From the human T2T-CHM13v2.0 reference genome, Homo sapiens, in the NCBI RefSeq assembly GCF_009914755.1, contig NC_060937.1: a DNA stretch of 64,000 bases; one strand, written 5' to 3'. The notes beneath the pieces are model-generated. The model was given only the letters and a program-made list of their open reading frames with translations, was not told the origin of the DNA and made no database searches. Positions 10,756 through 12,304 of this stretch are shown here, in pieces (within the stretch, counting starts at the first letter, position 1; each line of letters begins with the position of its first letter). Position numbers and translations under genes: made by a program.

Positions 10756-11011
10756 GTACTGATGAAGAGCAATATTTCGAAGTATAGAGACTTCTCCCAG
10801 ATCTAGATTTAAAACAAACCCAAGAAAAAAAAAAAGGCCCATTTTCTTCCTATACTACTTTTTTCTTCTATCAGCTTTTGGAAATGCTTACTATTTATTT
10901 CACTTTTTGGTTTTGCCCTATAGAAAATAATCCCATTCAAATAAACATTTTTTATATTGTTGCCTACAATATAAGCTGTCCAGCTTGTCATTCTTTACCT
11001 TTACCTCATTC

Positions 11012-11309
11012 TTTTTTTTTTTTTTAAGACGGAGTTTCGCCCTTGTTGCCCAGGCTAGAGTGCAGTGGTGCGATCTTGCCTCACTGCAGCCTCTGCCTCC
11101 TGAGTTCAAGCGATTTTCCTGTCTCAGCCTCCTGAGTAGCTGGGATTTCAGGCACACGCCACTACGCCTGGCTAATTTTCTGTATTTTTAGTAGAGACAA
11201 GGTTTCACCATGTTGGCCAGGCTGGTCTTGAACTCCTGACCTCAGGTGATCCGTCCACCTCGGCCTCCCAAAGTGCTTGGATTACAGGCATGAGCCACCG
11301 TGCCTGGCC
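11012..11309 (-). mobile_element. Alu (AluS) inside the inverted-repeat spacer
   Basis: TSD ctttacctcattcttt. Confidence 0.93.
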
Positions 11310-11780
11310 CTTTACCTCATTCTTTAATAAAATAATTGGACCAGATCTACTATCCTTCATAAACCAACAGGATGTGGGTAATTTACAAACTCAGTAATTT
11401 AGTCAAAAGTAACCTCATGCCCTGAGAGTTGTGGTACATTTTCCAGAGGTGTCTAACAGGTTGGCCACTAAGAGAATGTGCCATTCAGAGATTGATTCGG
11501 TCACATATGCTCCCCTGCCACCGCCCTGCATTCCTGTTGCTAAGATCTGAGAACAGTGTTATGTTACAGTTTTGATTTTGGAATCAAATTCTATTCCTTA
11601 ATAAGCCAAGTGTCCTTTTTTAAATAAGGTTAACTCAAACTTTAAAGTATAGAAGAAGGAATTTTAATGTTTTGACTGATGTTTGGTTTAAAGATGTACT
11701 TTGTTAAAGAAGTTTCTTTCTTAAGAGCTCTTTGGGAAGTCAAAGTTCCATTTGTATGTGCAGGTATATAGCTACTTAGC

Positions 11781-12081
11781 TTTTTGTTTGTTTGTTTTTG
11801 AGGCAGAGTCTCGCTCTCTCTCCCAGGCTGAAGTGCAGTGGCATGATCTCAGCTCATTGCAACCTCTGCCTCCAGGGTTTAAGTGATTCTCTTGCCTTAG
11901 TCTCCAGAGTAGCTAAGATTACAGACATGTGCCAACATACTCGGCTAATTTTTGTATTTTTAGTAGAGATGGAGTTTCACCATGTTGGCCAGGCTGGTCT
12001 TGAACTCCTGATCTCATGTGATCTGCCCGCCTTGGCCTCCCAAAGTGCGGGGATTACAGGTGTGAGTCACTGTGCCCAGCC
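11781..12081 (-). mobile_element. Alu (AluS) inside the inverted-repeat spacer
   Basis: TSD tacttagcttt. Confidence 0.92.
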
Positions 12082-12304
12082 TTACTTAGCTTTCTTATAA
12101 CTTATATCCCATGAGTTTAAAACCTTTATTATAAATATAGTTATTTTACAAGGACAAGCTGGACAGCTTATATTGTAGGCAACAATATAAAAAATGTTTA
12201 TTTGAATGGGATTATTTTCTATAGGGCAAAACCAAAAAGTGAAATAAATAGTAAGCATTTCCAAAAGCTCATTTATTATACTATTTTATTCATTTATTTC
12301 CTCT

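What the first reader, a model, noticed from the sequence alone, without database searches (positions are those of the whole stretch)
10873..12269. Perfect 117-bp inverted duplication of apparently unique AT-rich sequence inside one PHF11 intron
Seen: 10873-10989 (AGCTTTTGGAAATGC...CCAGCTTGTC) is the exact reverse complement of 12153-12269, with 0 mismatches by hand check and sharp ends. The arms resemble no repeat I recognise. The 1163-bp spacer holds two diverged AluS copies. Both arms lie in the intron between two frame-preserving (phase 1-1) exons, 117 nt after the donor and ~650 nt before the acceptor. Established: human DNA-transposon TIRs and Alu pairs are old and diverged, so 100% identity means either a recent templated insertion (template switching) or ongoing arm-to-arm gene conversion. 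Inference: the pre-mRNA could fold a flawless 117-bp dsRNA stem looping out 1.2 kb. That would be a better ADAR/PKR/MDA5/Dicer substrate than Alu pairs, in a gene I recall as immune- and interferon-associated. The arms could also mediate a recurrent inversion of the spacer.
Basis: partly seen in the sequence, partly recalled or inferred. Interest (0 to 1): 0.8.

Follow-up and report, generated by a model that had tools for sequence, protein, structure and literature searches.

The report
Young inverted duplication in PHF11 intron
A 117-base stretch of otherwise single-copy DNA is present twice, in opposite orientation and without a single difference, inside one intron of the human immune gene PHF11; it looks like the scar of a fairly recent DNA rearrangement, with no shown function.

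Summary
Window 10873-10989 is the exact reverse complement of 12153-12269: 117 nt, 0 mismatches, and similarity falls to background at both ends. It is the longest exact inverted match in the 64-kb window, and the other long ones I checked are Alu. The arm has only these two copies in the 3.1-Gb genome, carries no target-site duplication and matches no Rfam family. It is therefore not a transposon or a known RNA gene.

The 1163-nt spacer holds two old Alus with intact target-site duplications. Arms as old as those Alus should differ at about 15-18 sites, and they differ at none. The best reading is a young, one-step inverted duplication made after the Alus were in place, by a nearby template switch or a small inversion with a staggered break. 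It is probably neutral. No primate or second human genome was available, so age, polarity and polymorphism are untested.

The RNA claim needs qualifying. The whole-intron minimum-energy fold does not form the arm stem; Alu1:Alu3 pairing wins by about 149 kcal/mol. The stem forms only if it folds before Alu3 is transcribed. Interest is modest.

The parts
10873..10989 (+). Left arm of the exact inverted repeat (117 nt, 30% G+C, no CpG)
   Evidence: Exact reverse complement of 12153-12269. Only two copies in the genome.
12153..12269 (-). Right arm of the exact inverted repeat
10990..12152 (.). Spacer of 1163 nt. About 542 nt remain after removing the two Alus with one target-site-duplication copy each.
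   Evidence: The unique part 11327-11774 is single-copy in the genome. Its strand composition does not differ from the PHF11 intron background.
10998..11325 (-). Alu1, minus strand, with an intact 17-nt target-site duplication (10998-11014 and 11309-11325)
   Evidence: Rfam SRP-like hits at 11025-11308. Non-CpG divergence 6.6%, 16 of 241. TSD.
11773..12093 (-). Alu2, minus strand, with an intact 11-nt target-site duplication (11773-11783 and 12083-12093)
   Evidence: Rfam hits at 11798-12080. Non-CpG divergence 7.7%, 18 of 234. TSD.
12409..12744 (+). Alu3, plus strand, outside the repeat. It competes with the arm stem by pairing with Alu1 or Alu2.
   Evidence: (I1, I3, I4), and (266 Alu1:Alu3 pairs in the whole-intron MFE). 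9-nt TSD.
12307..12471 (+). Alternative 165-nt exon with two in-frame stops (a poison exon). Its acceptor lies 37 nt after the right arm. Its 3' end is Alu3-derived, and 12316-12403 is an old dispersed repeat.
   Evidence: Annotation given with the finding. Translation and splice sites. Nine hits at 77-84% identity on other chromosomes.
10624..10755 (+). Upstream constitutive PHF11 exon. Its donor is 117 nt before the left arm.
   Evidence: Annotation.
12917..12988 (+). Downstream constitutive PHF11 exon. Its acceptor is 647 nt after the right arm.
   Evidence: Annotation.

Best explanation
The repeat is an evolutionarily young inverted duplication made in one step. A unique 117-bp piece of this PHF11 intron was copied in reverse orientation about 1.16 kb away, after the two Alus now lying between the copies had already inserted. 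Two standard mechanisms fit, and I cannot separate them here. In the first, a replication or repair template switch inserts an inverted copy of nearby sequence. In the second, the roughly 1.28-kb segment inverts with a break staggered by 117 nt at one end, and fill-in leaves the staggered piece at both borders in inverted orientation. The arms are identical because too little time has passed for a substitution, not because anything maintains them. The repeat is most likely neutral. As a by-product the pre-mRNA can form a perfect 117-bp hairpin with a 1.16-kb loop, but only if it folds before the downstream Alu3 is transcribed. Shown: the anatomy, the uniqueness, the relative age and the folding energetics. 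Inferred: the mechanism, the neutrality and the kinetic folding.
For: The copies are exact and sharply bounded, and the flanks are at chance similarity. That fits a discrete copy event, not an old, eroded, longer palindrome. The arm, both flanks and the unique spacer are single-copy in the 3.1-Gb assembly apart from the two arms. No target-site duplication flanks the repeat. Alu1 and Alu2 in the spacer keep intact TSDs and are 6.6% and 7.7% diverged at non-CpG sites from a consensus of the window's 33 Alus. Arms of that age would differ at about 117 x 2 x 0.066-0.077 = 15-18 sites, and 0 are seen. That places their common ancestor under about one fifth of the Alus' age at 95%. Absolute rates of 0.5-1.2e-9 per site per year give a 95% upper bound of 25.6-10.7 My. 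Passages read in Ranz et al. 2007 (PMC1885836) report that 17 of 29 Drosophila inversions carry inverted duplications of nonrepetitive sequence. Those duplications range from 46 bp to about 1.9 kb, often come from only one breakpoint, and are explained by staggered breaks. The size and layout match this case. Abstracts listed (PMC7954356, PMC8794818, PMC10710096) describe template switching that creates perfect hairpins in one step in ape genomes. In 200 kb of randomly drawn genome, 0 of 58 exact inverted matches of 30 nt or more were anything but (AT)n or Alu, and the longest was 54 nt.
Against: No outgroup or second human haplotype could be examined. The youth of the event therefore rests only on zero differences in 117 sites and on an internal Alu clock. 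That clock is rough: a mixed-subfamily consensus inflates divergence, and AT-rich, CpG-free arms may mutate more slowly than Alu. No clear junction microhomology or filler was seen to mark a template switch; there is at most about 1 nt, plus an ACAAG duplicated at the right inner junction. The strand-composition test for a recent inversion was uninformative. Neutrality is assumed, not tested. The repeat sits in an interferon-stimulated gene, 37 nt upstream of a poison exon. The random-genome control is small (200 kb), so it gives no usable estimate of how rare such repeats are.
Confidence: 0.6

Rival explanations
1. The inverted repeat is old, and its arms are kept identical by arm-to-arm gene conversion or by template-switch homogenisation.
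For: Zero differences although the enclosed Alus are 6.6-7.7% diverged. The abstracts of PMC8604942 and PMC13100816 listed state that template switching can homogenise inverted-repeat arms.
Against: Homology is only 117 bp with a 1.16-kb spacer. From memory, efficient mammalian intrachromosomal recombination needs roughly 200 bp or more of uninterrupted homology. Identity runs right up to sharp edges and the flanks are at chance similarity. Conversion-maintained repeats would be expected to erode at their edges. Known conversion-maintained human palindromes have arms of kilobases to megabases (recalled).
Confidence: 0.12
2. The repeat is a selected RNA element. The perfect hairpin regulates PHF11 splicing by looping out 1.2 kb and bringing the donor at 10756 close to the poison-exon acceptor at 12306. 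Alternatively or additionally, it acts as a strong ADAR1/PKR/Dicer substrate in an interferon-induced transcript.
For: The arms alone fold weakly (-13.7 and -19.1 kcal/mol), while the duplex gains a net -161 kcal/mol. The transcript prefix ending before Alu3 folds with all 117 arm pairs. The poison exon with two in-frame stops begins 37 nt after the right arm. The arms hold 82 adenosines. PHF11 is interferon- and poly(I:C)-regulated according to the abstracts. Long-range pairing inside introns is associated with splicing outcomes (PMC8052449, passages).
Against: The whole-intron MFE has 0 arm pairs, because the Alu1:Alu3 duplex is 149 kcal/mol better. The same intron already offers Alu inverted pairs as ADAR substrates. 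The element is intronic, so cytoplasmic sensors would rarely meet it. From memory, 117 bp is short for MDA5 filaments. A young element has had little time to be selected. PHF11 is not mentioned in the main text of two long-range RNA structure catalogues. Full-text searches pairing PHF11 with 'A-to-I' or 'inverted repeat' each found 1 paper, and neither is on this subject by its title and abstract start.
Confidence: 0.1
3. The repeat is private to CHM13, either a rare polymorphism or a cell-line mutation, or it is an assembly artefact.
For: Only one assembly was examined. A very recent origin is fully compatible with zero differences.
Against: The whole structure is 1.4 kb, which is far shorter than the long reads used for such assemblies (recalled). 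Both junction regions are ordinary unique sequence. Nothing in the sequence suggests a collapse or a chimera.
Confidence: 0.08
4. The arms are the terminal inverted repeats of a non-autonomous DNA transposon.
For: The layout is two inverted ends around an internal region of about 540 nt once the Alus are removed.
Against: No other copy of the arm or of the internal sequence exists in the genome. There is no target-site duplication of 3-10 nt at any of four end registers, only a chance 2-nt 'AT' in one register. Perfect ends are at odds with the great age of human DNA transposons (recalled). NCBI's masking does not cover the arms (annotation given with the finding).
Confidence: 0.02

Closest known systems
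Inverted duplications left at inversion borders by staggered breaks (Ranz et al. 2007, Drosophila; PMC1885836, passages read)
   Same: Ancestrally unique, nonrepetitive sequence is duplicated in inverted orientation at the two ends of a segment. The size lies within the reported 46 bp to 1.9 kb range. The duplication often comes from one breakpoint only.
   Different: Those inversions are large chromosomal ones in flies, and their duplicates average about 88% identity. Here the putative inverted segment is 1.28 kb, inside a human intron, and the copies are 100% identical. Whether the spacer is inverted relative to the ancestor is untested.
Template-switch mutations that create perfect hairpins in one step (abstracts of PMC7954356, PMC8794818 and PMC10710096)
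   Same: A nearby sequence is copied in reverse complement during replication or repair. This gives an instantly perfect stem without compensatory evolution.
   Different: As I recall, the described events are short-range, tens of bases with hairpin-sized loops. Here the copy is 117 nt and lies 1.16 kb from its template. No junction microhomology was evident.
Inverted Alu pairs (IRAlus) as endogenous dsRNA and ADAR substrates
   Same: Two inverted copies lie within about 1-2 kb in one transcript and can form a long intramolecular duplex. Three such Alus sit in the same intron.
   Different: The arms are not Alu and are unique in the genome. The helix is perfect but shorter: 117 bp against about 270-300 bp at 78-90% complementarity. 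Net stability is lower. Editing was not tested.
Large sex-chromosome palindromes kept identical by arm-to-arm gene conversion (recalled)
   Same: Inverted arms with near-100% identity around a unique spacer.
   Different: Those arms are kilobases to megabases long and are conserved across primates. Here the arms are 117 bp, below the homology length usually needed for efficient conversion (recalled).
Hairpin-RNA (hpRNA) endo-siRNA loci of Drosophila and mouse oocytes (recalled)
   Same: A long perfect or near-perfect inverted duplication that is transcribed as a single hairpin.
   Different: Those are dedicated transcription units with documented small RNAs. This one is an intronic hairpin with a 1.16-kb loop, no small-RNA evidence and no Rfam match.

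Membership tests
DNA transposon / MITE with terminal inverted repeats | Belongs to a multi-copy family in the genome | tested here: not met
   Arm: 2 matches, which are the two arms. Arm plus flanks at E up to 10: no further arm-related hit. Internal unique part: 1 match, itself.
DNA transposon / MITE with terminal inverted repeats | Target-site duplication directly flanking the inverted ends | tested here: not met
   No direct repeat of 3-10 nt at any of four end registers. Only a chance 2-nt match in one register.
Inversion with staggered-break inverted duplication | Inverted duplicates made of ancestrally unique sequence, tens to hundreds of bp, bounding one contiguous segment | tested here: met
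   The size range is from PMC1885836.
Inversion with staggered-break inverted duplication | The segment between the duplicates is inverted relative to the ancestral state, and the ancestor has one copy | not testable with these tools
   No primate or other human assembly is held. The strand-composition proxy was uninformative: spacer TA and GC skews lie within the spread of 22 background chunks.
Template-switch / templated inverted insertion | Exact reverse-complement copy of nearby sequence | tested here: met
Template-switch / templated inverted insertion | Microhomology at the switch junctions | tested here: inconclusive
   At most about 1 nt at the junctions. 'ACAAG' is repeated at the right inner junction. 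Two matching bases follow one mismatch on each side. This is compatible with chance in AT-rich DNA.
Template-switch / templated inverted insertion | The outgroup lacks one arm and has an unchanged spacer orientation | not testable with these tools
   No outgroup sequence is available.
Conversion-maintained palindrome | Arms identical within a species but diverged between species | not testable with these tools
   No outgroup sequence is available.
Conversion-maintained palindrome | Arms long enough for efficient homologous exchange (kilobases in the known cases, recalled) | tested here: not met
   Homology is exactly 117 bp with chance-level flanks.
IRAlu-type ADAR substrate | Arms are inverted Alu elements | tested here: not met
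   No SRP/Alu-like Rfam hit on the arms. The arms are unique in the genome.
IRAlu-type ADAR substrate | Clustered A-to-I editing in RNA | not testable with these tools
   No RNA data are held. The full-text search for PHF11 with 'A-to-I' found 1 paper, which is on colorectal cancer subtypes by its title and abstract start.
miRNA or other described structured RNA gene | Match to a curated family model | tested here: not met
   Of 16 Rfam matches at E up to 1 in 10600-13000, none overlaps either arm.

The most novel reading that the evidence does not exclude
A one-step inverted duplication in the ape or human lineage gave the interferon-stimulated gene PHF11 a perfect 117-bp intronic hairpin. 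The hairpin forms co-transcriptionally before the competing Alu3 emerges. By looping out 1.16 kb it brings the donor of exon 10624-10755 to within about 150 nt of the acceptor of the poison exon 12307-12471. This would make PHF11 output depend on transcription speed and on ADAR or helicase activity. When the intron is retained during an interferon response, it would also supply an unusually potent perfect-dsRNA ligand for ADAR1 or PKR.
Probability: 0.06. Interest if true: 0.65.

Novelty: new member of a known kind. Interest (0 to 1): 0.3.

Why it matters
If the plain reading is right, this is one more small lineage-specific rearrangement scar. Its use is as a clean, datable example of how a perfect long hairpin can arise in one mutational step in unique human DNA. 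It would matter more if the hairpin forms in vivo. Perfect duplexes longer than 100 bp are uncommon in human transcripts, which mostly offer imperfect Alu pairs. This one sits in an interferon-induced gene next to a poison exon. The locus also gives a natural test of kinetic against thermodynamic RNA folding, because the arm stem and the Alu1:Alu3 duplex exclude each other.

Tried and rejected
1. Transposon reading: rejected. There are no other copies and no TSD.

2. Known RNA family: no hit on the arms.

3. Strand-composition test for a recent inversion of the spacer: uninformative. The unique spacer has TA skew 0.07 and GC skew 0.03. The background is 0.03 +/- 0.10 and -0.04 +/- 0.13 over 22 chunks.

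4. Search for the arm in other collections, in case contaminating human DNA gave a second haplotype: 0 matches in genome contigs and 0 in viral contigs.

In those 200 kb there were 58 exact inverted matches of 30 nt or more. The longest was 54 nt, and all were (AT)n or Alu. The sample is too small for a genome-wide rate.

6. Literature searches:
- PHF11 with 'inverted repeat' found 1 paper, on gene targeting in monocot plants.
- PHF11 with 'A-to-I' found 1 paper, on colorectal cancer subtypes.
- PHF11 with inversion and breakpoint found 3 papers, none about this intron by title and abstract.
- PHF11 with 'human-specific' and 'structural variant' found 0.
- The inverted-repeat catalogue I read uses spacers of at most 1000 nt (PMC5398296), so this repeat falls outside it.
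- PHF11 is absent from the main text of PMC10691357 and PMC8052449. Their supplementary tables were not examined.

7. The 'staggered' hits in Aguado et al. 2014 (PMC3961182) turned out to refer to restriction-enzyme ends, not to a mechanism. The table rows shown list inversion-mediating repeats of 1.6-15.9 kb.

9. (a script with fuzzy regex) timed out and was replaced.

Full report
**Observation.** Window 10873-10989 is the exact reverse complement of 12153-12269: 117 nt with no mismatch. The repeat finder reports the same pair as 123 nt at 98%.

The ends are sharp. The first base beyond each end is a mismatch. Over the next 40 positions only 8 of 40 (outward) and 11 of 40 (inward) agree, which is what AT-rich DNA gives by chance. 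The arm is 30% G+C and has no CpG.

Of 227 exact inverted matches of 25 nt or more in the 64-kb window, this is the longest. The next three (91, 73 and 55 nt) have one or both arms inside Alu copies listed.

- 117 nt lie between the donor at 10756 and the left arm.
- 647 nt lie between the right arm and the acceptor at 12917.
- The flanking exons are 132 and 72 nt, and the introns around them are phase 1.

**What it is not.** The assembly holding the window (3.1 Gb, 24 contigs) could be searched.
- The arm has two matches, the arms themselves.
- Searches at E up to 10 with each arm plus its flanks gave no other arm-related hit.
- The unique part of the spacer is single-copy.
- No target-site duplication of 3-10 nt flanks the repeat in any of four end registers.
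- None of 16 Rfam matches at E up to 1 in 10600-13000 overlaps an arm.

The tool notes that very common words are skipped and that counts are lower bounds. Even so, it recovered matches of 77-84% identity to an old dispersed repeat in the neighbouring 12316-12403. A repeat family of moderate divergence would therefore have been seen. A transposon with terminal inverted repeats and a known RNA gene are both rejected.

**The spacer and the clock.** The 1163-nt spacer holds two minus-strand Alus. Each has its own intact target-site duplication: 17 nt for Alu1 and 11 nt for Alu2. They are independent old insertions that the event did not damage. Without them the spacer would be about 542 nt.

Measured against a majority consensus of the window's 33 near-full-length Alus, Alu1 differs at 16 of 241 non-CpG sites (6.6%) and Alu2 at 18 of 234 (7.7%). 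If the arms had separated when these Alus inserted, they should now differ at about 15-18 of 117 sites. They differ at none. At 95%, their common ancestor is younger than about one fifth of the Alus' age.

This clock is rough. A mixed-subfamily consensus overstates divergence, and AT-rich, CpG-free arms may mutate more slowly.

With assumed absolute rates of 0.5-1.2e-9 per site per year, zero differences has probability 0.47-0.16 at 6.5 My, and the 95% upper bound is 25.6-10.7 My. So either the copy is young on a primate timescale, or something homogenises the arms. 'Young' still allows the repeat to be shared with other apes.

**Youth or conversion.** I favour youth, for two reasons.
- Homology is exactly 117 bp and stops abruptly against flanks of chance similarity. 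A repeat kept by conversion for tens of millions of years should erode at its edges.
- From memory, efficient mammalian intrachromosomal exchange needs more uninterrupted homology than this.

In the table rows I saw of Aguado et al. 2014 (PMC3961182), the inverted repeats that mediate human inversions are 1.6-15.9 kb. That also makes frequent flipping of the spacer through 117-bp arms doubtful, though not impossible.

**Mechanism.** Two standard routes give this anatomy.

(a) An inversion with a staggered break. Passages read in Ranz et al. 2007 (PMC1885836) report that 17 of 29 fly inversions carry inverted duplications of nonrepetitive sequence. These range from 46 bp to about 1.9 kb and often come from one breakpoint only. 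The authors explain them by fill-in of staggered breaks. Here a 117-nt stagger at one end of a 1.28-kb segment would do.

(b) A template switch during replication or repair that inserts an inverted copy of nearby sequence. The abstracts (PMC7954356, PMC8794818, PMC10710096) describe this as a one-step source of perfect hairpins in ape genomes. As far as I recall, those events are at shorter range.

I found no decisive junction signature. A strand-composition test for a recent inversion had no power. The two routes make different predictions for outgroups, and no outgroup was available.

**RNA consequences.** In isolation the arms make a perfect duplex with a net gain of -161 kcal/mol. Each arm folds weakly on its own (-13.7 and -19.1 kcal/mol). 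The 1437-nt segment containing them folds with the full stem.

However, the intron also holds plus-strand Alu3 just downstream. Alu1:Alu3 and Alu2:Alu3 duplexes are more stable overall (net -296 and -228 kcal/mol), although their longest perfect runs are only 21 and 28 bp. Alu1 and Alu2 lie inside the loop and Alu3 lies outside it, so these pairings exclude the arm stem in a nested fold.

| Fold | Energy (kcal/mol) | Arm pairs | Alu1:Alu3 pairs |
|---|---|---|---|
| Whole intron (2161 nt), MFE | -898.9 | 0 | 266 |
| Whole intron, arm stem enforced | -749.5 | 117 | 0 |
| Prefix ending before Alu3 (10756-12414), MFE | -583.0 | 117 | n/a |

Whether the hairpin exists in cells is therefore a kinetic question, and it was not tested. 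The claim that it is a better sensor substrate than Alu pairs holds only for uninterrupted helix length. The element is intronic, and from memory 117 bp is short for MDA5.

**Context.** The annotated alternative exon 12307-12471 begins 37 nt after the right arm. It is 165 nt long and carries two in-frame stops, so it is a poison exon. A formed stem would bring the upstream donor to within about 150 nt of that acceptor. This is the basis of the bolder reading, to which I give about 6%.

**In print.** The full-text searches were:
- PHF11 with 'inverted repeat': 1 paper, on gene targeting in monocot plants.
- PHF11 with 'A-to-I': 1 paper, on colorectal cancer subtypes.
- PHF11 with inversion and breakpoint: 3 papers, none about this intron by title and abstract.
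- PHF11 with 'human-specific' and 'structural variant': 0 papers.

PHF11 is not in the main text of two long-range RNA structure catalogues; I did not examine their supplements. The inverted-duplicate census I read caps spacers at 1000 nt (PMC5398296). I found no description of this repeat. Genome-browser tracks, Dfam and structural-variant catalogues were not available to me.

**Verdict.** This is a real, exact, unique-sequence inverted duplication. It is most likely a young and neutral rearrangement scar (confidence 0.6). Rival readings:
- conversion-maintained old repeat: 0.12
- selected RNA element: 0.10
- private to CHM13 or an artefact: 0.08
- transposon: 0.02

It is a new member of a known kind, and interest is 0.3.

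Noticed in passing
window 12307-12471: The alternative PHF11 exon (165 nt) has two in-frame stop codons when spliced between exons 10624-10755 and 12917-12988, so it is a poison exon. Its 5' part (12316-12403) is an old dispersed repeat with nine hits at 77-84% identity on other chromosomes. Its 3' end and its GTGAGT donor come from Alu3.
   Followed up: partly
window 10756-12916: The arm stem and the Alu1:Alu3 duplex exclude each other in nested folds. The MFE chooses Alu1:Alu3 (266 pairs, -898.9 kcal/mol) over the arm stem (-749.5 kcal/mol). The transcript prefix ending before Alu3 forms all 117 arm pairs. The locus is a natural case of kinetic against thermodynamic folding.
   Followed up: yes
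window 59992-60916: Three consecutive minus-strand Alus lie about 335 nt apart. They share exact non-Alu direct matches between units (44 nt at 60249-60292 and 60583-60626; 40 nt at 60333-60372 and 60668-60707). This suggests a local tandem duplication of an Alu-containing unit.
   Followed up: no
window 42847-42937 and 51187-51277: A 91-nt exact inverted match between two Alus about 8 kb apart in RCBTB1. It is the second-longest exact inverted match in the window, and both copies appear to be relatively young Alus.
   Followed up: no
window 10756-10872: The distance from the donor to the left arm (117 nt) equals the arm length (117 nt). I take this as coincidence.
   Followed up: no
L014 4480-4978 (G000:C5, about 145.47 Mb): A roughly 500-nt AT-rich, near-palindromic (AT/TA)n tract in one of the random control pieces. 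It accounts for most of the exact inverted matches of 30 nt or more in the 200-kb control.
   Followed up: no
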